From the IMG/VR virus record IMGVR_UViG_3300037485_001404, positions 1 through 64,000 of that record: a DNA stretch of 64,000 nucleotides. The stretch is one strand, 5' to 3'. This DNA is from a virus. Positions 26,501 to 55,649 of this stretch are shown here, in pieces (the stretch's first letter is position 1; each line of letters starts with the position of its first letter). The notes beneath the pieces were generated by a model. It saw only the letters and a program-made list of their open reading frames with translations. It searched no databases and was not told the DNA's origin. Position numbers and translations under genes: made by a program.

Positions 26501-29100
26501 GATGTGAAATCGGAGAAACCCGAAGCGGCAGTTTGTGCCGGAAAACCCGAAGCCGCAGCTCTATTTGCCACTACAAGCCCAGTCCCTGGGTCTAATCCAA
26601 AAGGCATTGTCTGAAGGGTTAACTGGAAATTATCATTGAATGGAATAGGGTTCGATGTCTCTGCTACGTAGGCAGATCCGGGAAAGTTAGGTAGAAATAC
26701 GGAGAGGCTGGCATATGCCTTGAAGTATCCTGCAAGGGTAGTTGTAGTATGGAATACCCCTAATGGCTCTATGATGAAATAAGGATGGCTTGAAATATTA
26801 AGCCCTATCAACCTATTTCCAGCGGAAAGAAGATATTTACATCTTGGAGCTGGTACGTTGTTACCTTCATCCAGAATATACAGTTTTCTTCTCTCTGCAG
26901 GATTGAAGAATTCTGTCTCACCTATAGTAAAAGTGAATTTGTTATGCGGAACCCCGGTCAATACCGTTTTCTCAAGTCTGTAATTGAGTTGTGCATCCGC
27001 TAATGGGTCTAGGGCATTCCTGTAGACATTCAAGGATACTGGATAGAACATACCCCTAGAAGTTGGGGGTGCTTTTACACAGACTTCGACCAGTTCGGCA
27101 TAATTGCTACCGTCCCTCGCTGCCTGGGGAGTAAAAACCACCTCTCCGGGTTCTGTAGACCTAGACTCGTAGGTCCTACCCAGAGAATCCACATAGGAGT
27201 AGGTAAAACACAGATCTATTTTCTCACCTATCCTGGCATTTGCTCCATATTGACTAGACGGGATGTTACTTCTGGTCCCAGGGATAGACCTGATAGAGAT
27301 TAACTCCGGTTTCGGGATATTCTCACAGGCTAGAGAATCACCAAGCAACCTCCAAGGACTTCCGTCAGAAGAAACGTGACACAGTGAATCAGCAAAAGCT
27401 ATGGAACTCTGGACTGAGGTATTGTCAAGTAATTCTCCGGTCTGATATTCAGAAGAAAATGGTATAAAGGCACTCGATAGCAGGTGTATCAGATCCCACA
27501 TAGCCCCAAAATACAGCGTATCTGTGGAGCTAAATGTTACCTCTCTGTCGAGATACGCATTTGTCAAATCTGTGCTAATGATTCGATAGGTAGGAGTATC
27601 CTCACTATCGCTGTTAAAAGAAAGGGTTAAACCTGTTATCAAACCACTCAGCGGTAAAGTTCTACTTGTACGAGTGACGTTGATCTTAGAATACAGGTAT
27701 AGGTTTAGGGTGGTCCCAAGATAAGATACCTTAATCGAGGGGGTTATCTCAACCACGGTAAAAGTAACTGAAGCTTTACTGCCTGAAGTTTGAATAATCT
27801 CATAGGTTAAAATATCACCGACGAGTAGTTTGGAAGCATTATTCAAATTCGAGGTTATGTCAAAATACCCGTCAATACCTGCCGTTACTGCTGCTGCCAC
27901 GGCTACCCAAATATCGGCTAATAGGGTAGGGGCAGTAGGGAAGAACTCACTAAAATCCACCTCTCTAAACAGATTACTGTTATTTGCGGCTACTAAGGTA
28001 TTTAGATTTGTAGCTAGATTCAAATATGAGGCTAGGGATTGTATTCTCCCTGCATTTAATCCTAACCCATACATGAACCTATTGAGGCCACTTGCGGTAT
28101 TAGATCCTATTAGAGTTATAGGTGAAATGTAGAAACGAAATGTAGTGCTATCAACAGCAGCACCACTACTTCTTATCAGTTTGAAGTTCTGACCGGAAAC
28201 GTACGCCATCCTGAAATAATTCTTGACTACAGTAAATCCTGTTCCAAAGGTGCTAGCACCAGTACACCCGATTACAATTGTCCTACTTGCATGGGTGTTA
28301 GAGATTACTTTCTGACCGGAAAGATTATAAGTCCCTACTATCATTGCAGGAGACCCTACAGGAAAGAGATATCTTACATCATCCACTGTCCAAGTAGAAG
28401 CAAAGACAATAGTAGCTTGGGTATTTGCCACATTTACAGAAACAGAGGCAATATCCGACTCAACAACACAGTTTGGTTGAATTCCAACACATAGCTGTAT
28501 CTGGTAACTAGCTGCAGTTACATCAACCGTACTGGACCCTGCGATAAATGCAGGGTAGGCTGCTGTCAGTACTACTCTCAGATTATTTGCGTCGCACTTA
28601 GAGATAACGAAATATCTTCTACTTAGAACTGCTGCAATTGGTATAGGGTATATGCTGGGATAGGTTAAAGAAGTAGAGGTACCTATCAGCATATGATTTG
28701 TAGAAAGAATTATTTCAGGGTAGTCCTCCCAATCTGTCCAATCTACAAGTACGTGCGTGCTAGTCAAATCTCTAGTGGACTGATACCCGAGATATTTGTC
28801 TAGTGAGGCTGATATCATTCCTGTATTGTATGGAATGAATTTGAGGTCTGGTACGGCTATGGCCTCCCATTCGAGTTCTAGGACTGTCGATACTCCGGTA
28901 TTGTAATGAACTCTAGCCGGAAACTCACATCCGTATTGCCCATATCCTGGTCTTTTCTTGATAACCCCTTTAGTGGAGATATCGGCATTTTCCATAAGAT
29001 CGCAGTATCCGTCCGGGATAGCAGTGACAGCAGAGCTTCCATCAATCCCGTGGGAGGAATCAATGGTGAAAATAGTATTAGGGTCTTGTTGAACTCCCAT
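23593..29100 (-). CDS. tail nozzle / stabilization protein (tail tubular B-like), unusually large (1835 aa)
   Basis: N-terminal GID...ENADISTKGVIKKRPGY and C-terminal beta-propeller-like region (LMFKSNSIY, TVGAFS, YFLHDTG) typical of podovirus nozzle/stabilization proteins; follows the adaptor gene. Confidence 0.75.
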   Translation of the reverse strand: MGVQQDPNTIFTIDSSHGIDGSSAVTAIPDGYCDLMENADISTKGVIKKRPGYGQYGCEFPARVHYNTGVSTVLELEWEAIAVPDLKFIPYNTGMISASLDKYLGYQSTRDLTSTHVLVDWTDWEDYPEIILSTNHMLIGTSTSLTYPSIYPIPIAAVLSRRYFVISKCDANNLRVVLTAAYPAFIAGSSTVDVTAASYQIQLCVGIQPNCVVESDIASVSVNVANTQATIVFASTWTVDDVRYLFPVGSPAMIVGTYNLSGQKVISNTHASRTIVIGCTGASTFGTGFTVVKNYFRMAYVSGQNFKLIRSSGAAVDSTTFRFYISPITLIGSNTASGLNRFMYGLGLNAGRIQSLASYLNLATNLNTLVAANNSNLFREVDFSEFFPTAPTLLADIWVAVAAAVTAGIDGYFDITSNLNNASKLLVGDILTYEIIQTSGSKASVTFTVVEITPSIKVSYLGTTLNLYLYSKINVTRTSRTLPLSGLITGLTLSFNSDSEDTPTYRIISTDLTNAYLDREVTFSSTDTLYFGAMWDLIHLLSSAFIPFSSEYQTGELLDNTSVQSSIAFADSLCHVSSDGSPWRLLGDSLACENIPKPELISIRSIPGTRSNIPSSQYGANARIGEKIDLCFTYSYVDSLGRTYESRSTEPGEVVFTPQAARDGSNYAELVEVCVKAPPTSRGMFYPVSLNVYRNALDPLADAQLNYRLEKTVLTGVPHNKFTFTIGETEFFNPAERRKLYILDEGNNVPAPRCKYLLSAGNRLIGLNISSHPYFIIEPLGVFHTTTTLAGYFKAYASLSVFLPNFPGSAYVAETSNPIPFNDNFQLTLQTMPFGLDPGTGLVVANRAAASGFPAQTAASGFSDFTSFKISLVAGLHVIASPVVVYNDLSQQFYLGLAHATTALKLKLRATSKDFPRGTSIDFLGDVFTRRTDASSSDVVLEATTKWTDENLDAALKPRILNGHSLTAFDFIQAYTAAEVLSKDAYVECVNDNTGSKTYLTFSPSASGVISSLTSKVLVIQGPGRLGGYKSGDDSEILDWESRLTFTSAAASVTGFGPVSRLELTPVRLSNVVGATVVSVVSPIYPSQTVSEPALPGYSMSIFGNTLAYLDVTAVTGFSVPSLFLNIQAVGIGNVTGFPAGDYLNLVLSDADAAKIPSNYPSLDVAMQIDTRISENEIKVRILNSFELWTQAVATSLSFGASSFAVNATKKFAPSYLNTCFLLEFPISGASPSPECGAFLIIRGKDYNSVCMELSGWYIVREVKDGGNTLVLASSFDIQQGIYPDFAPSITSISMSHVIIADTPGVFPVPVPYKLGLAESLSDLALPYFTANPLLTNNPLVQISKRFSAAIGTLDYQDVAVADSDLGLREYIHSSYGKNNGYEIDLSANSFFVLSMVSPNSQKRRMEVYRAYPEIYHNTGTSEIFDSIVFKFRGDPESYQINAAIRPSPGDPFDVTIEKAKADYVATTFTYRVDNYPNAFVWTAAISSSIINNFIPTFKQDAYHDLGSQDGTQLTGGTPFQSQALMFKSNSIYAVTFGEALLDYTVKRLQTTVGAFSHYNLPVTDSYCYFLHDTGPHYTDGVNVEPMFKLNKVFDEYTIKDRTLFSLAAGYTDTYSKNVYLGAPYVSPYSDHICHPDAQYNYSYNDGVLGWLVNTRIDALRWVERDGRYYFASTRGFVGKMRTETELTRYNDYDSPIPFALRTRYTPNAPAQEAYQGGEAANIKFKFWRNAIFQFGNTSDFSMAVYYSENYSTTETPLETYNILGADTNGTNPIYGTDRYVKTLRDTLGKRTAQIAFILREESADTDCPIYHISVEGLLLNTRLVPQKDTRSGDR

Positions 29101-49768: not shown

Positions 49769-50014
49769 ATGATATTCAACCTGTTCGCGCTGTTAAGTAA
49801 TAACATCAAGAGCATACCCCTGTTGATTCTTATGGGCCTAATGGCTTGGATGGCGAGCACCCTATCTGATGTGGAGGAAGGTATCGCAGGGATGAAAACA
49901 GAAATAGCTGTAATGAATGAGAGTCTTAGATTGCATATGGTTTATACCTACCCTAATACGGGTGTTCCTGCCTTCGTTCTACCTCCTAGCCTTCAGAAAA
50001 AGGAAATACATTGA
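49769..50014 (+). CDS. putative holin / small membrane protein
   Basis: Single TM helix plus coiled coil, upstream of the endolysin; ATG at 49769 after GGAG. Confidence 0.5.
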   Translation: MIFNLFALLSNNIKSIPLLILMGLMAWMASTLSDVEEGIAGMKTEIAVMNESLRLHMVYTYPNTGVPAFVLPPSLQKKEIH

Positions 50015-50649
50015 ACCATACCTTAGGTAAATACATTTTTGACAGAATAAATAAACTGTTTATCCTAGATATCGTTGTCAAGAATGGAAAAACCTATTTT
50101 CAATGCTCCTGCGATTGCGGTATCCTCTGCGAAAAAGATGTCTATAAAGTCCTGTCGGGTCACACTAAATCTTGTGGCTGTAATCTGGTCAATAGGGACT
50201 ACCAAAAAAGACATGGGGGGCACAAATCTTCAGAATACGGCACCTGGGAAGCAATGAAAGCCAGATGCAACAATCCTAAAAATAAGAAATACAGGCTGTA
50301 TGGAGGAAGAGGAATAAAGGTTTGCGATAGGTGGAATGATTTTGTAAATTTCTACGAGGATATGGGCCTCCGCCCGGAAGGGTTAACTCTGGAGAGGATA
50401 GACAGTGACGGAAATTACTGCCCTGATAACTGTAAATGGGCTACTTATTCAGAGCAGAATAGAAATACAACTCAAAATCACTACCTAACTCTTGGAGAAA
50501 CTACTTTAACTATCGTTGGGTGGGCCGAGAGATTGGGATGGGATCCCGCAGTAATCCACGCTAGATTAAAATATGGCTGGTCCATAGAGGATACTTTAAC
50601 AATACCGAAAAGGAATAGGAGTCCCAATGGTACAAGAGAAGCCTTCTGA
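50011..50649 (+). CDS. HNH-family homing endonuclease
   Basis: CSCDCG...TKSCGC, YGGRGIKVCDRW, TLERIDSDGNYCPDNCKWAT, QNRN; same family as 17432-18139. Confidence 0.9.
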   Translation: MNHTLGKYIFDRINKLFILDIVVKNGKTYFQCSCDCGILCEKDVYKVLSGHTKSCGCNLVNRDYQKRHGGHKSSEYGTWEAMKARCNNPKNKKYRLYGGRGIKVCDRWNDFVNFYEDMGLRPEGLTLERIDSDGNYCPDNCKWATYSEQNRNTTQNHYLTLGETTLTIVGWAERLGWDPAVIHARLKYGWSIEDTLTIPKRNRSPNGTREAF

Positions 50650-51844
50650 TAAGTTTTTGAAATTTGTATCCGCAGTTAAGGCCGAATCAATTGAGTTTCC
50701 TGAACTGAAACCGTATCTGGTAGCCCAAGCCATTCTTGAATGTGGCAGGGGTATTACAGAGTTGTTCGACCAATACAATAACCCTTTCGGAATGCACTAC
50801 CATGATTTCCTGGCACCTTACGGTATCGGCGTTCAATATGTGGCCTGCGACGGACCTGGGCTTTATACCAAGTTTGATAATTATTCATCCGCTATTAAGG
50901 GTTTCTACAAGTGGTTCGATGCCTGGGCACACTATGGCGACTGGAGAACCGAGGCACGCAAAGGCGGGCTTGCTTTTCTGAAGCACATCGGACCTTTCTA
51001 CTGCCCTCCCGGATTCACTGAATCCTGGAAAACTGCACATGGAGGTCTTGACTATGCGGACTATATCGTTAACAACCTGCTGGTAGAAGCTAAGGTTTTG
51101 TTGAATGATGCGACAGCAACCCCCGATAAACCCACCCCAAAACCAGTACCGAAGGATTTTACCTATCTTTCTGCAGATACTGCTGAAGCAAAGAACTTGG
51201 TCAATGCTTTGGTGTCTAATTTTCCAAAAGAGTTTAGCTTTAAGCTGTATAAACCACCTACGGATACTCCAGTAGAGCCACCAAAACCCCCAAACCCGCC
51301 AACAACTGCCGGGAAAAAGATACTTCTGAACCCAGGACACAGTGCTTCTTCCCCTGGCGCGGATGGACTGTCATCTAGCGTCCATGAAGAGGTGCAAAAT
51401 CTCCTTGCCGCAAATATTATGGCCTCAGATCTCAGAGCTGCAGGGCATACTGTAGATATCTTTAGGTCAGAGAGCAATGATCTTCAAGCTGTGGGAGACA
51501 AAGCTAAGGGGTATGATGCTGCATACTCTCTCCATCACAATGCTTTTGACAAGAAAGAGCATTACGTCTGGATATTCGGCCCGAGTGGAGAAGCTAACCA
51601 AGCATCTAAAGATCTTGGAGCCAAGATTACTGCAGCAATTGGAAAAGCTCTTAATCTTGCAGATAATGGGATGGAAAAGTCGGGATATACTGTCCCCAAT
51701 CTGTTCGCGAAGAATTGCAAAGGCCCATCTGGTCTTATTGAATTCTATTTCATTGATGCATATGGGGATCTTAATGTTGTTAATGATAGAACAACTAAAG
51801 CGGCACATGCAATGGCTGGAGCAATGATTAAATACTTCGGGTGA
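50627..51844 (+). CDS. endolysin: GH73 glucosaminidase plus Amidase_3
   Basis: AQAILECG...NNPFGM (GH73); Pro-rich linkers; ILLNPGH...E...SLHHNA...LIEFYFID (Zn amidase). Confidence 0.88.
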   Translation: MVQEKPSDKFLKFVSAVKAESIEFPELKPYLVAQAILECGRGITELFDQYNNPFGMHYHDFLAPYGIGVQYVACDGPGLYTKFDNYSSAIKGFYKWFDAWAHYGDWRTEARKGGLAFLKHIGPFYCPPGFTESWKTAHGGLDYADYIVNNLLVEAKVLLNDATATPDKPTPKPVPKDFTYLSADTAEAKNLVNALVSNFPKEFSFKLYKPPTDTPVEPPKPPNPPTTAGKKILLNPGHSASSPGADGLSSSVHEEVQNLLAANIMASDLRAAGHTVDIFRSESNDLQAVGDKAKGYDAAYSLHHNAFDKKEHYVWIFGPSGEANQASKDLGAKITAAIGKALNLADNGMEKSGYTVPNLFAKNCKGPSGLIEFYFIDAYGDLNVVNDRTTKAAHAMAGAMIKYFG

Positions 51845-52007: not shown

Positions 52008-53051
52008 ATGATAAGATTGGGGGTATTGTCTCCTTCGCCAATAGATACCACGGGTTTGTTTAGGGTAGGTTGGCCTCTAGCTCTATTACGTAGGCAAACC
52101 CCTAATTTTGTATATACGTACATCAATGAAGTATCCTGGCTATCGGCATCTCAAATTGATGCTTGTATGTTTCAAAGACCGTTTACTCCTGAGCATGTGA
52201 CAATCCTTAATAGGTTCAAAGAAGAAAGTGTTCCGACCTGGATTGAGTATGATGATCTTCTTACCGCAATACCGAAGCACAATCCTTCTTTCGATACTTA
52301 CGGTAAGCCAGACATACTGGAAGCATTGAAAATAATACCTGCTCTGGTAGATATTATTACAGTTACTACCCCTTACCTCAAAGAATGCCTACAATCCCCT
52401 TCAGTGAAAGATGTTAGAGTTGTCCCCAATGCTTGGGATGACTATCATCTTCCGATGGAACAAGAGAAGCACGCGGTCAACAAATCTCTCCGTATCGTAT
52501 GGAGAGGAAGTCCAACACATATTTCCGATCTTGATCTATATGCCGATCCGGTTATTAGACTGCACAAAGAGGATCCAAGCATTCACTGGTTCTTCCTTGG
52601 GTTTAGACCTTGGTTTACTAGACAAATGGAACAAACACACTGCCATGTCTTCGAGAAACCTCTAGATATGGTAGAATACATTAGATTTTTAGGGACTATC
52701 AGACCAGATATTCTCGTAGTACCTTTGACAGATGATCCGTTTAATAGGGCTAAGAGCAATATTGCTTGGATGGAAGCATCCTTTGCAGATGCTGTGACTG
52801 TTGCTCCTGATTTCCCTGAATGGAATAGACCTGGGATTATAAACTACAAGGATTCTATTCTAGATACGCTATCGGATACGATAGTGAACATTGATTCGTT
52901 GAAGCACAATACAAAACTATCCTGGGATTTCATCCAAGAAAATCTTCTTCTCTCCAAGGTTAATTATTTGAGATGGGAAGTGCTGGAAGAAATAATAAGT
53001 AAGAAGAAGCCTATTACGACTTCTTTCTTACCTCTAGGATCGAGACCCTAA
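52008..53051 (+). CDS. glycosyltransferase (GT-B/GT4-like)
   Basis: FQRP, EYDDLL, ITVTTPYL, VVPNA, IVWRGSPTH, PLTDDPFNRAKSNIAWME. Confidence 0.85.
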   Translation: MIRLGVLSPSPIDTTGLFRVGWPLALLRRQTPNFVYTYINEVSWLSASQIDACMFQRPFTPEHVTILNRFKEESVPTWIEYDDLLTAIPKHNPSFDTYGKPDILEALKIIPALVDIITVTTPYLKECLQSPSVKDVRVVPNAWDDYHLPMEQEKHAVNKSLRIVWRGSPTHISDLDLYADPVIRLHKEDPSIHWFFLGFRPWFTRQMEQTHCHVFEKPLDMVEYIRFLGTIRPDILVVPLTDDPFNRAKSNIAWMEASFADAVTVAPDFPEWNRPGIINYKDSILDTLSDTIVNIDSLKHNTKLSWDFIQENLLLSKVNYLRWEVLEEIISKKKPITTSFLPLGSRP

Positions 53052-54406
53052 CGCTAAGGAACCATACGGTACTATACCAGAACCTCACCACATCTCAATA
53101 CGCACTACCTCTATTCCACTTTATCGCACAATGCCGTCATGATAACATACAACGCATTACCCTCTCGACACTATAGCATACTTCACCTATTCTTCAAAGT
53201 ATATGATACCACCCTACCTACATAAAACCTCGCTCGACTTCTACGCCACGGGACGGCATCTTACCACTACCGTACCGAACAGCACTCCACTTTACCCTCA
53301 CTCCATGGAACAACACCTAACCAAAGCCCGACCGCATCTCACATCGCTTTATCCGGATAGCAAGTTAAGAGACTATACCTCCATGCCACGAGGCTCGGCT
53401 CGACCACAACCTTACATGACGAAACAATGCTATACCCCAACTGTACGGTCCCGTATAAGATTTCACCTTCTGCAGTACCGATACCAAACCACAACACCAA
53501 ACTACATAACTATGCCGTCACCTTTCCCACCTTATCGGATCTCACCTTTACTTCACGCGAAGAAACTTTACCCCCTACATTAAGGCATCCTAGCTTAATC
53601 TACCTCGACCACAACTAAGTCCACTTGACCATCGCCTTACGTCATAATATCCTATCTTGCAGGAACGCAATCCCAGTATACAATGATTCAACACGACCAT
53701 CGCCTTATCAAACACTGGTTCATCTTACCATCACACCAATGTACGTGGCTCTACCCCCATCTAATCTTATTGCACCCCACCTCTGCTGGAAAGCACATAG
53801 CGCAGCTTTACCTACACCGCAAGACACGTAACGCAGCATTGCCGCTACCTTGACGAATCGAACAGAACAATACCGCTACTTTATTGCCAGATTACTTGAC
53901 CTCAACCCACCTTTAATAGGCGGTACGTGGCATAACTTTAACGGCACTGGACCAAACCTGGACCAAAGACGAATTTACTCCTAACACATACTACGCGGCT
54001 TTACCTTTACCTGCATTAACCTACTACACCTTCGATTGAAGTTAGTTTACCCCACCTACAACCTCACATCGCTTTATCAAACCAATACTACACTTGACTT
54101 TACCTAGACGAAAAATTCATATTATATCACCGAAACTGCAACCTATTTCACTTTACCGTGGCATTGCGCCAATCCAGTCTACCACAACAACATACCGCAA
54201 AATCCTACCATCACCGAACTGTACCGAAGACAACCATACCCTTACAGAATCCAGCGAAACCAGGCCCGCACTGAAGACAACGAAACCAAACCCTCACTAA
54301 ACTGCACCGTGACAGAAGGTGGCTTAACTCTAACTTTACATCGATGGCTTTAGTGCCACCCTTCGATTGAAGTTAGTTTACCCATCCTACAACCTCACAT
54401 CGCCTT
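53051..54406 (-). ncRNA. periodic non-coding array (5-nt period, ~50 units of 5n+1 nt); candidate guide-RNA array of a VIPR-like system
   Basis: Plus strand parses as runs of purine-initial pentamers (mostly AC-NNN) closed by a hexamer, usually RCC-NNN, e.g. 53269 accgt accga acagc actcc acttt accctc | actcc atgga acaac accta accaaa. Lies directly downstream of the RAMP gene. RNA function and strand are inferred. Confidence 0.8.
54029..54403. repeat. 44-bp direct repeat within the array (54029-54072 and 54360-54403)
   Basis: CCTTCGATTGAAGTTAGTTTACCC(CA/AT)CCTACAACCTCACATCGC; 42/44 identical. Confidence 0.9.
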
Positions 54407-54477
54407 TCTTATAACAGTCAATCTCCCACAGACTGTTCCCACCAAAATCATCCGGATTCTCCAGTCATTTCAAGCAC

Positions 54478-55326
54478 TTAGAGCCATCCGGGTGGTAAAT
54501 CTTCTTCGTATCCCGGCAATTCTTCCAACTGATAAAGAAATGCGCCTTTGTTTCCACTGCCTCTCCATGATCCTAATCCCTGATTCTTACCAAGGTCTAG
54601 CAATACCTTCAACGCTTCAAATGTAAATGGTGATCCCTTTCTAACTCTAAGCACTGTTCCCATTTCCGTATCCACAGGTAAGACTTCTGAAACAGCGATA
54701 GCAGTCTTTCGCTTGCCCATAACATCAAAGTGAATAGCTCGCTCACAATAAGCGGGATTGCCCTCACTGTCACGAGCAATATCGCGGTCAGGGCGCATAA
54801 ATTCATCAACAGCTTTAAGGTCCAGAGCACCACAACCACCAGCAGCCACTTTAGTCTTGACAATGGATCTATCCTCCGTAGAAAGCATCACTTCGAGATT
54901 AGCCTTGATGTTACCAAGGATCATATGAGTAGACACCATAGGCCAACCCTTTTCATCTCTCATGAAAACTGTTGCCTGCTTTTGAGTTCCTTCTTTTACT
55001 GCTTCATCAAACTCTTTCTCAACGTCTACGATCAACTCCAGCAATTCAGGGATAGTCTCAGGCAAAGCTTCATTCCTTCCAAGTCTTGCTTGAAAGGATC
55101 TGACTATCCCCTGTAGTTCCATTATTTCTTTCTCCACAGCCAATGCACTACCGGAATACTTTGCCAGTGCCTTGGTGACCTTGGCACCGAGCTTGTTGGC
55201 TTTCTCCAATTCTTTCTTGGTCTTAGAGAGGACGTGCTCATTGTAGATCGATGCTTTAGGGCAAGTGCCCAACATGTCTCGGATAAGCTTGAGGCGAAGG
55301 CGATAGTACAGAAAATTCCCAGTCAT
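54478..55326 (-). CDS. stand-alone RAMP / Cas7-like RNA-binding protein (Vipr-like)
   Basis: RAMP hallmarks in the expected order: first strand YRLRLKLIRDMLG; FMRDEKGWPMVSTHMILGNIK (cf. the Cas7-group G-P-IP---lKG-lR motif); thumb region ERAI...RKTAIAVSEVLPVDTEM; glycine-rich loop GLGSWRGSGNKGAF. AAGGAG RBS. Confidence 0.85.
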   Translation of the reverse strand: MTGNFLYYRLRLKLIRDMLGTCPKASIYNEHVLSKTKKELEKANKLGAKVTKALAKYSGSALAVEKEIMELQGIVRSFQARLGRNEALPETIPELLELIVDVEKEFDEAVKEGTQKQATVFMRDEKGWPMVSTHMILGNIKANLEVMLSTEDRSIVKTKVAAGGCGALDLKAVDEFMRPDRDIARDSEGNPAYCERAIHFDVMGKRKTAIAVSEVLPVDTEMGTVLRVRKGSPFTFEALKVLLDLGKNQGLGSWRGSGNKGAFLYQLEELPGYEEDLPPGWL

Positions 55327-55366
55327 AATTGCTCCTTATGCGTTAAGTGACTTCAGAACCGTTTTT

Positions 55367-55394
55367 ACCCTATCACACCCACCGAGGATGTCAA
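55367..55394 (-). promoter_or_regulatory. putative promoter of the RAMP gene and array
   Basis: Minus strand TTGACA, 16-nt spacer, TAGGGT with extended -10 TG; about 40 nt upstream of the ATG. Confidence 0.45.
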
Positions 55395-55649
55395 CAGGCA
55401 AAGCTTGGACAGCCAAAATCCCGACCACACTTTGGACACCGCAACCCCTTGATATCATTAGACCGATCCAGGGAGATCTACTATATTGAATGACAAAAAA
55501 GACCCCTTTATCCAATAGTCCTAGCACCAAGGCTGAAATCGATTTGGACCCTATACTGATGCGATCTGCTCGAAAAGATTCAACCTTGAGCCTCTGAACG
55601 CGACAAATTTCAGGGCTTATCTGATTGACCGGCCAGTCAAGCCACCCTC

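What the first reader, a model, noticed from the sequence alone, without database searches (positions are those of the whole stretch)
53051..54406. Two-level architecture of the array: pentamers grouped into 5n+1 units by a one-base phase slip at GGY
Hand parsing of the plus strand gives consecutive units such as 53051-53081 (31 nt), 53082-53112 (31), 53113-53138 (26), 53139-53164 (26), 53165-53190 (26), 53191-53221 (31), 53243-53268 (26), 53269-53299 (31) and onward to 54270-54295 (26). A few units are 16 or 21 nt and a few carry 1-nt indels. Each unit is 2-5 purine-initial pentamers followed by a hexamer that usually begins ACC/GCC. In over half of the units the base before it is T (TACC, i.e. 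GGTA on the minus strand). Units share a register rather than a repeat sequence, so CRISPR finders would not call it. Inference: the hexamer marks guide boundaries or processing sites, and unit length sets filament length at about 5-6 subunits.
Basis: partly seen in the sequence, partly recalled or inferred. Interest (0 to 1): 0.85.

Follow-up and report, generated by a model that had tools for sequence, protein, structure and literature searches.

The report
Phage VIPR guide array, one-base punctuation
The 1.3-kb five-base rhythm with regular one-base slips is real: it is the guide-RNA array of a phage VIPR system (a CRISPR-related RNA-guided DNA silencer first described in 2026 preprints), and the slips cut it into about 45 short guide cassettes, so it is a good example of a known kind.

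Summary
On the minus strand, 53022-54308 is a chain of units of the form G + (G-Y-N-N-N)n. Most have n = 5 or 6 (26 or 31 nt). Each unit reopens with a strong GGT(A). A pentamer-plus-insert HMM scores LLR 151, against -14 +/- 10 for dinucleotide shuffles. Of 50 register breaks, 46 are +1.

The array lies directly downstream of, and co-oriented with, a 282-aa Cas7-like RAMP. That protein is homologous to the published Vipr of phage SUSP1 (hhalign 91%, E 1e-6).

The same 5n+1 grammar follows the homologous gene in 53 of 62 related metagenomic loci, with 1525 of 1656 slips being +1. Unit size is lineage-specific.

Between related phages, units are shared, lost and replaced as whole cassettes, and homology starts exactly at the GGY.

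This matches the 'staggered vrRNA arrays' and 'YNNNG repeats' named in bioRxiv 10.64898/2026.04.26.720920. The scan has also reported the same slip punctuation on other DNA.

Reading the slips as guide boundaries is supported by comparison. Processing, filament length and targets remain untested: no RNA runs were listed and no targets were found.

Verdict: new member of a known kind.

The parts
54478..55326 (-). vipr-like gene: 282-aa Cas7/Csm3-like RAMP with a ~90-residue helical insertion (about residues 27-114) and G-loop GLGSWRG
   Evidence: ORF. AF2 model has pLDDT 78. Foldseek best hits are Csm3/Cas7 of type III and VII complexes, E 2e-5 to 1e-4. Profile-profile match to the SUSP1 Vipr family: 90.8%, E 1.2e-6, 175 columns. 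No Pfam or PHROG family matched.
53022..54308 (-). guide (vrRNA) array: about 45 units of G+(G-Y-N-N-N)n, mostly 26 or 31 nt, each starting with GGT(A)
   Evidence: HMM parse and shuffles. Per-position profile. It is the only such array in the 75-kb genome, on the minus strand only; the background HMM calls 53049-54308.
54309..54477 (-). irregular stretch between the gene's stop and the first clean unit; holds one copy of the 47-nt duplicated element and a weak hairpin at 54452-54464
   Evidence: Parse, direct repeat D2, terminator-like scan.
53004..53025 (-). terminator-like hairpin plus T-rich tail at the 3' end of the array, inside the 3' end of the convergent glycosyltransferase ORF (52008-53051, +)
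   Evidence: 8 pairs, loop of 6, then CTTACTTATT. This is a consensus match only.
54029..54075 (-). second copy (94% identical) of the 47-nt element at 54360-54406; partly non-periodic, contains a 4-bp hairpin (CTTC-AATC-GAAG); role unknown
   Evidence: (family D2) and the sequence.

Best explanation
The region is the guide-RNA array of a phage VIPR system, in the 'staggered', tail-less layout.

Inferred: the RAMP gene (55326 to 54478) and the array (54308 to 53022) are transcribed together on the minus strand and end at the hairpin at 53025-53004.

Shown: each unit is one guide cassette. It has a conserved G, then n repeats of G-Y-N-N-N (n = 5 or 6 here). Y is always a pyrimidine and the preceding G is kept in about 70% of repeats.

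Inferred by analogy with SUSP1 Vipr (bioRxiv 10.64898/2026.04.26.720927): one RAMP protomer binds each repeat, sequesters G-Y and presents the following bases for gapped pairing with target DNA.

Shown: the 'extra' base is equivalent to the first G of the GGY that opens every unit. It shifts the next unit's register by +1.

Inferred: this slip marks where one guide and its filament end and the next begin.

Shown, with an inferred link: the family's G-loop has S/A/Q where SUSP1 has D177, and it has no aligned counterpart of H17. Those are the two residues that read G1 in SUSP1. The tryptophan and arginine that hold G2 and Y3 are kept. This fits a G1 position that is free inside units.
For: The architecture is statistically real.

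The adjacent gene has a Cas7/Csm3 fold and is homologous to published Vipr.

The same HMM recovers exactly four vrRNAs of 76-86 nt in phage SUSP1, one upstream and three downstream of its vipr gene, as published. This is a positive control.

In 53 of 62 related loci an array lies on the gene's strand, usually starting within about 10-200 nt of the stop codon. None is on the opposite strand.

Across 63 non-redundant arrays (50.5 kb), slips are +1 1525, +2 61, -1 42, -2 28. Of 1268 clean units, the commonest lengths are 31 (359), 26 (318), 36 (214) and 41 (124) nt.

Unit size follows RAMP phylogeny: one clade averages 5.2-5.9 repeats per unit and its sister clade 6.0-8.2.

Cassette behaviour: arrays beside 100% identical RAMPs differ by in-register block indels. 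L033 and L037 (81% identical RAMPs) share about 6 of 55 units. Homology begins at G1 and ends at the last base of the unit.

In diverged homologous units, positions 4-5 are better kept than position 1 (12.0% against 19.0% mismatches, Fisher p = 5e-4). This fits the published reading of NN as the specificity positions.

The RNA shows no selected secondary structure (z = -0.42).

The preprints name YNNNG repeats and staggered arrays in which vrRNAs abut with a 1-nt offset.
Against: There is no direct evidence of transcription, strand, processing or RNP formation for this clade.

No natural target was found.

Five or six repeats give only 10-12 specified bases under the published NN rule. That looks too little for unique targeting unless position 1 is also read or neighbouring guides cooperate.

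The conserved GGT(A) at unit starts gives microhomology. One 151-nt indel lies between GGTGATGGTA repeats. Cassette-shaped turnover could therefore partly reflect where recombination is easy rather than where function ends.

No conserved vap partner gene is present, although published loci 'typically' have one.

Fig. S18 itself could not be viewed, so equating this array with the 'staggered' type rests on its legend.
Confidence: 0.8

Rival explanations
1. The locus is a VIPR array, but the units are not separate guides. The array, or long pieces of it, acts as one scaffold, and the +1 base is a structural phasing device. For example, it could relieve strain about once per helical turn: published SUSP1 filaments have 6 subunits per turn free and 5 per turn on DNA. 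Specificity would then come from several units together.
For: Units of 5-6 repeats equal one published helical turn. Single units carry only 10-12 NN bases. No tail or ribozyme separates the units.
Against: Related phages swap, lose and keep single units independently in colinear order, with homology ending at the slip. That would break multi-unit guides. The sister clade uses 7-9 repeats per unit, so 'one turn' does not generalise. One two-unit NNx pattern found no match in IMG/VR, which is uninformative.
Confidence: 0.13
2. The array is a decoy or sponge RNA. It would titrate or redirect a rival phage's Vipr, or a host RNA-binding protein, rather than guide the phage's own RAMP.
For: Satellites and VIPR-null phages carry solo vrRNAs that redirect a competitor's VIPR (abstract of bioRxiv 10.64898/2026.10.15.759431).
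Against: Here, and in 53 of 62 relatives, the array is physically coupled to and co-oriented with its own RAMP gene. Repeat grammar and unit size co-vary with that protein's lineage.
Confidence: 0.04
3. The signal acts at the DNA level. A period of 5.2 bp is half a helical turn, so the stretch could be a protein-binding or structural DNA tract rather than an RNA.
For: The mean period of 5.2 equals 10.4/2, and the lag series 5, 10, 16, 21, 26, 31 fits a pure 5.2 period.
Against: Strand asymmetry is strong (GC skew about -0.45). The G-rich strand is always the gene's strand. Slips are discrete and fall at a conserved GGY rather than as smooth drift. Units evolve as cassettes. The adjacent protein is an RNA-binding RAMP.
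Confidence: 0.03

Closest known systems
VIPR systems with 'staggered' vrRNA arrays and YNNNG-type repeats (bioRxiv 10.64898/2026.04.26.720920, text, Methods and legend of fig. S18)
   Same: A phage-borne lone RAMP gene with a pentanucleotide-repeat array beside it on the same strand. Only G-Y is conserved within repeats (YNNNG register). Guides abut without tails and are offset by one base.
   Different: The preprint text gives no numbers for this layout and says it was not confirmed by sRNA-seq. This report adds the 5n+1 rule with counts, lineage-specific unit size, cassette turnover, a ~90-aa helical insertion in the RAMP, and the absence of a conserved vap gene. Which of the seven published types this clade belongs to could not be determined, because no supplementary files are held.
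Type II VIPR of Escherichia phage SUSP1 (KT454805; Vipr 195 aa, vap1, four vrRNAs)
   Same: Homologous RAMP (hhalign 90.8%, E 1.2e-6). The G-loop W-R that holds G2 and Y3 is conserved. Repeats have a 5-nt period with a pyrimidine at position 3. Both are phage-encoded.
   Different: SUSP1 vrRNAs are 11-15 uninterrupted strict GGYNN repeats followed by a ~40-nt hairpin/pseudoknot tail, each a separate ~100-nt RNA. Here the units have 5-6 relaxed repeats and no tail, about 45 are fused head to tail with +1 slips, and no vap is present. The G1-reading residues D177 and H17 are not conserved.
Class 1 CRISPR Cas7 backbone filaments (type I, III and VII crRNPs)
   Same: Cas7-like RAMP fold. One protomer binds per fixed RNA step, with periodic base flipping by the thumb.
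   Different: There are no direct repeats or spacers, no cas1/cas2, Cas5, Cas6 or large subunit, and the step is 5 nt rather than 6. Guide identity is spread over short variable positions rather than held in a contiguous spacer.

Membership tests
VIPR system (Vipr + vrRNA) | Effector is a minimal RAMP (RRM core, G-rich loop, thumb) outside any CRISPR-Cas locus | tested here: met
   AF2 model and Foldseek: top hits are Csm3/Cas7, E 2e-5 to 1e-4. G-loop GLGSWRG is present. Neighbouring ORFs have no cas families. No CRISPR-like repeats were found. The thumb was not examined residue by residue.
VIPR system (Vipr + vrRNA) | Sequence homology to published Vipr proteins | tested here: met
   Profile of this family (48 sequences) against the profile of the SUSP1 Vipr family (23 sequences): probability 90.8%, E 1.2e-6, 175 columns, end to end. 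The narrower 23-sequence profile (A1) against the single SUSP1 sequence matched only the G-loop (2%).
VIPR system (Vipr + vrRNA) | Adjacent non-coding array of pentanucleotide repeats (GGY/NN or a related consensus such as YNNNG) | tested here: met
   Column profile is n / G 0.65 / Y 0.93 / N / N. LLR is 151 against -14 in shuffles. The same holds in 53 of 62 related loci, always on the gene's strand.
VIPR system (Vipr + vrRNA) | vrRNAs are expressed and co-purify with Vipr | not testable with these tools
   No RNA run holds the stretch. Only DNA contigs could be laid on it.
VIPR system (Vipr + vrRNA) | Variable NN positions specify DNA targets with one skipped base per repeat | tested here: inconclusive
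   Eight pairing rules tested on 367 kb of held phage DNA gave no excess over permuted guides. Three exact NNx patterns found nothing in IMG/VR. Indirect support: positions 4-5 are better conserved than position 1 in diverged homologous units.
VIPR system (Vipr + vrRNA) | Accessory vap gene next to vipr ('typically' present, not obligatory) | tested here: not met
   All-against-all BLASTP of ORFs flanking vipr in 63 loci: no neighbour family occurs in more than 7 loci and none occurs in the window.
Type II VIPR (SUSP1-like) | 9-16 uninterrupted GGYNN repeats capped by a conserved structured 3' tail | tested here: not met
   Units have 5-6 repeats and no tail between them. Rfam gives no hit. 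Folding z-score is -0.42. The SUSP1 control shows the tail and uninterrupted runs.
Staggered vrRNA array (fig. S18 of the preprint) | Consecutive vrRNAs abut, with the end of one marking the start of the next at a 1-nt offset | tested here: met
   46 of 50 register breaks are +1. Family-wide the figure is 1525 of 1656. Equivalence rests on the legend text only, because the figure is not held.
CRISPR array | Identical direct repeats of 25-40 nt alternating with unique spacers; cas1/cas2 nearby | tested here: not met
   No such repeat family was found. No cas genes were detected.

The most novel reading that the evidence does not exclude
Whole units are gained, lost and replaced in colinear arrays beside identical or near-identical RAMP genes, with breakpoints exactly at the GGY. 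This could reflect an active, register-aware way of acquiring new guides, a primitive 'adaptation' step in a phage VIPR array, rather than passive recombination. In that reading, the 5-6-repeat mini-guides would each form one helical turn of filament and act cooperatively.
Probability: 0.1. Interest if true: 0.75.

Novelty: new member of a known kind. Interest (0 to 1): 0.4.

Why it matters
VIPR is a months-old, preprint-only class, and its only experimentally characterised arrays are of the SUSP1 type. This locus and its roughly 60 relatives give a large, clean data set for the untested 'staggered' layout.

- The data set yields an exact grammar: G + (GYNNN)n.
- Unit size is inherited with the protein.
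- Units turn over like CRISPR spacers.
- A residue-level correlate, loss of the G1-reading Asp and His, fits the relaxed repeat.

These points make three open questions directly testable: how tail-less VIPR guides are delimited, how long a working filament must be, and how arrays diversify. None of this changes the picture of what the system is.

Tried and rejected
- **RNA evidence.** The look-up of sequencing runs listed no RNA holder. Read laying showed only 151-nt DNA unitigs of relatives from two freshwater-sediment runs. Neither bears on expression.
- **Target search, local.** Eight pairing rules (NN or NNN with 0-3 skipped bases) were run for 1151 units against 367 kb of held phage DNA. 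Results equalled those of permuted guides.
- **Target search, IMG/VR.** Exact NNx patterns from two long units of relatives, and one pattern joining two adjacent window units, found no match. The window's own units give only 10-12 specified bases, below the tool's minimum of 14.
- **Codon statistics of the variable triplets.** TAA and TAG are depleted but TGA is not. Residuals correlate with several reading frames. This is inconclusive on whether position 1 is read.
- **Cross-validated conservation test.** Detection at 80% identity on half of each unit picked up mostly chance pairs. It was replaced by a stricter whole-unit threshold.
- **Known RNA families.** Rfam gave no hit in the whole window.
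- **Close relatives in named collections.** No DNA or protein match in the INPHARED phages. No relative among GTDB species genomes.

Full report
**What is there.**
The window is 64 kb of a 75,234-bp phage genome with terminal repeats, assembled from a sediment metagenome. Between two convergent genes lies about 1.4 kb without ORFs. The + strand gene is a glycosyltransferase-like ORF ending at 53051. The - strand gene is a 282-aa ORF ending at 54478. The minus strand of the gap is G-rich and C-poor, with GC skew about -0.45 on the + strand. Rfam finds nothing in the window.

- T and G autocorrelation on the minus strand peaks at lags 5, 10, 16, 21, 26 and 31.
- GT-to-GT distances peak at 26, 31, 52 and 57.
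- An HMM with five pentamer columns and an optional extra base gives LLR 150.9. One hundred dinucleotide-preserving shuffles give -14.4 +/- 10.4.
- 34 of 53 parsed units are 26 or 31 nt, against 4.2 +/- 3.2 in shuffles.
- With equal priors for +1, +2, -1 and -2 slips, the parse uses 46, 3, 1 and 0.
The boundaries differ by a constant 3 nt, which is only a choice of register.

**Anatomy of a unit.**
Aligned units read G-G-Y, then variable bases, then n-G-Y-N-N repeated, then one extra base. The simplest description is G + (G-Y-N-N-N)n.
- The pyrimidine is essentially invariant. Across the family it is never G and almost never A.
- The G before it is kept in about 65-75% of repeats.
- The three following positions are variable.
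- The 'extra' base is equivalent to the additional conserved G that opens each unit (G 0.88, G 0.95, Y 1.00 over 1268 family units).

**What it belongs to.**
The adjacent ORF has no Pfam or PHROG family. Its AlphaFold model (pLDDT 78) matches Csm3/Cas7 subunits of type III and VII CRISPR complexes. The literature search then found three 2026 preprints describing Viral Interference Programmable Repeat systems. In those systems:
- a small RAMP (Vipr) polymerises on a vrRNA made of GGY/NN pentamers;
- one protomer binds per repeat;
- the NN bases pair with DNA, skipping every third target base, and transcription is silenced.

The Methods name alternative repeats, including YNNNG. The text and the fig. 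[quoted passage not shown] That layout was not among those confirmed by sRNA-seq.

**Membership tests.**
I located the SUSP1 locus in KT454805. Vipr is at 28474-29061 on the minus strand. Its arrays are 11-15 uninterrupted strict GGYNN repeats followed by a hairpin tail. My HMM recovers exactly four arrays of 76-86 nt there, one upstream and three downstream, as published.

A profile of the window's family, extended with ~200-aa relatives from the representative search, aligns end to end with a profile of the SUSP1 Vipr family. The match has probability 90.8%, E 1.2e-6 and 175 columns.

In that alignment the G-loop reads G-L-G-(S/Q)-W-R against G-V-G-D-W/Y-R. The tryptophan and arginine that hold G2 and Y3 in the SUSP1 structure are kept. 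D177, which reads G1, is S in the window protein, and H17 has no aligned counterpart. That fits a repeat in which G1 is free (inference).

The ~90 extra residues are three long helices inserted after the first strand. No conserved accessory gene accompanies the RAMP in 63 loci.

**The grammar is a family trait.**
Homologues of the RAMP occur only in viral and metagenomic contigs: 24 in the clustered protein search, and 62 loci fetched. None was found in GTDB genomes or in named phages.
- In 53 of the 62 loci, a background-aware HMM finds an array on the gene's strand, usually starting within about 10-200 nt of the stop. None is on the other strand.
- Seven of the nine loci without an array end within 140 nt of the gene.
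- Over 63 non-redundant arrays (50.5 kb), slips are +1 1525, +2 61, -1 42 and -2 28.
- Clean unit lengths are 31 (359), 26 (318), 36 (214), 41 (124), 46 (71), and so on.
- Mean repeats per unit follow the RAMP tree: 5.2-5.9 in the clade holding the window and 6.0-8.2 in its sister clade. Relatives share labels, so this shows inheritance, not co-evolution.
- Within arrays the spread is narrow. In the window it is 5.24 +/- 1.05 repeats. I did not compute a random-slip null; by my own reckoning, slips placed at random (a geometric distribution with that mean) would give a spread of about 4.7.

**Units are cassettes.**
Three loci with 100% identical RAMPs (L004, L023, L024) differ by block indels.
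- One is 151 nt, exactly six units, between GGTGATGGTA repeats that span a unit boundary.
- One is 192 nt and leaves a 16-nt hybrid unit, which is still 5n+1.

Elsewhere there are a one-unit 31-nt indel and a 306-nt in-register indel.

L033 and L037 have RAMPs that are 81% identical, yet share only about 6 of 55 units. The arrays of L007, L049 and L050 share scattered units in colinear order among unrelated ones.

For 20 such isolated homologous pairs, identity at variable positions is:
- 0.34 in the 15 nt upstream;
- 0.975 in the first 15 nt inside;
- 0.91 in the last 15 nt inside;
- 0.325 downstream.

Position -1 scores 0.40 and position 0, the first G, scores 1.00.

A caveat applies. The conserved GGT(A) also offers microhomology for recombination, so part of this pattern may be mechanical.

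**Which positions carry information.**
In diverged homologous units (3 or more differences, up to 20% mismatch), positions 4 and 5 differ in 12.0% of cells and position 1 in 19.0% (Fisher p = 5e-4). G2 and Y3 change freely within their purine or pyrimidine class. Examples from relatives show NN kept while positions 1-3 vary. This agrees with the published NN code. It leaves a puzzle: 5-6 repeats give only 10-12 specified bases.

**What could not be shown.**
- No RNA run is listed, so strand, expression and processing are inferred from co-orientation in 53 loci, a terminator-like hairpin at 53025-53004 and the homology to Vipr.
- No target was found locally or in IMG/VR.
- Codon statistics of the variable triplets were inconclusive.
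- The array RNA has no selected fold (z = -0.42), as expected for a protein-coated single strand.

**Rivals.**
- A single long scaffold in which the slip is a once-per-turn phasing device is not excluded. It is disfavoured by single-unit turnover and by the 7-9-repeat sister clade.
- A decoy RNA is disfavoured by the tight coupling to its own RAMP.
- A DNA-level half-turn signal is disfavoured by the strand rule, the discrete GGY-marked slips and the RAMP partner.

**Verdict.**
The element is a VIPR staggered guide array, a kind already published in preprints. Other agents in this scan have already reported it, with the same slip punctuation, on other genomes. I rate it a new member of a known kind, of moderate interest. 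Its main use is as a large comparative data set for the untested array layout.

Noticed in passing
window 54360-54406 and 54029-54075 (minus strand): A 47-nt element occurs twice (94% identical). One copy is at the 5' edge of the array and one is mid-array. Part of it (GGGTAAACTAACTTCAATCGAAGG) breaks the pentamer rhythm and can form a 4-bp hairpin. It may mark the start of two sub-arrays, as a leader, an internal promoter or a processing signal.
   Followed up: partly
window 54063-54078, 53338-53353; variant at 54394-54409: A recurrent unit family (GATAAAGCGATGTGAG...) appears two or three times in the array, so some guides are duplicated or are close variants.
   Followed up: partly
window 54478-55326 (protein residues 250-255): The G-loop is GLGSWR. 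The residue equivalent to SUSP1 Vipr D177 (which reads G1) is Ser here and S/A/Q across the family, and H17 has no aligned counterpart. W and R (which hold G2 and Y3) are invariant. This matches the relaxed first position of the internal repeats.
   Followed up: partly
window 55336-55600 and relatives L002-L066: No conserved vap-like accessory gene flanks the RAMP in 63 loci. The RAMP carries a ~90-residue three-helix insertion that might stand in for a helical-bundle partner.
   Followed up: partly
L007:4869-8756 (also L047, L048), L049:1051-4766, L050:6287-9531: Sister-clade phages carry very long arrays (3.2-3.9 kb, about 85-100 units) with 7-9 repeats per unit. These are among the largest guide repertoires seen here.
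   Followed up: partly
L014 array, units 10 and 15: Two guides in one array share the same NN series, except that one has an extra pentamer. This is what would be expected for two variants of a target that differ by one codon.
   Followed up: no
family-wide variable triplets (all arrays): In the register N4-N5-N1, TAA and TAG are depleted (z about -4.5 and -4.9) but TGA is not. AAA/TTT, GAA/TTC and GAT/ATC are enriched as reverse-complement pairs. This may echo codon-aligned targets on both strands, but frame tests were inconclusive.
   Followed up: partly
window 52008-53051 (+) against 53004-53049 (-): The last array unit and the terminator-like hairpin overlap the 3' end of the convergent glycosyltransferase-like ORF.
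   Followed up: no
window 50011-50649 and 50627-51844: An HNH endonuclease ORF sits directly before a two-domain endolysin (glucosaminidase plus amidase_3) in the late operon upstream of the glycosyltransferase.
   Followed up: no
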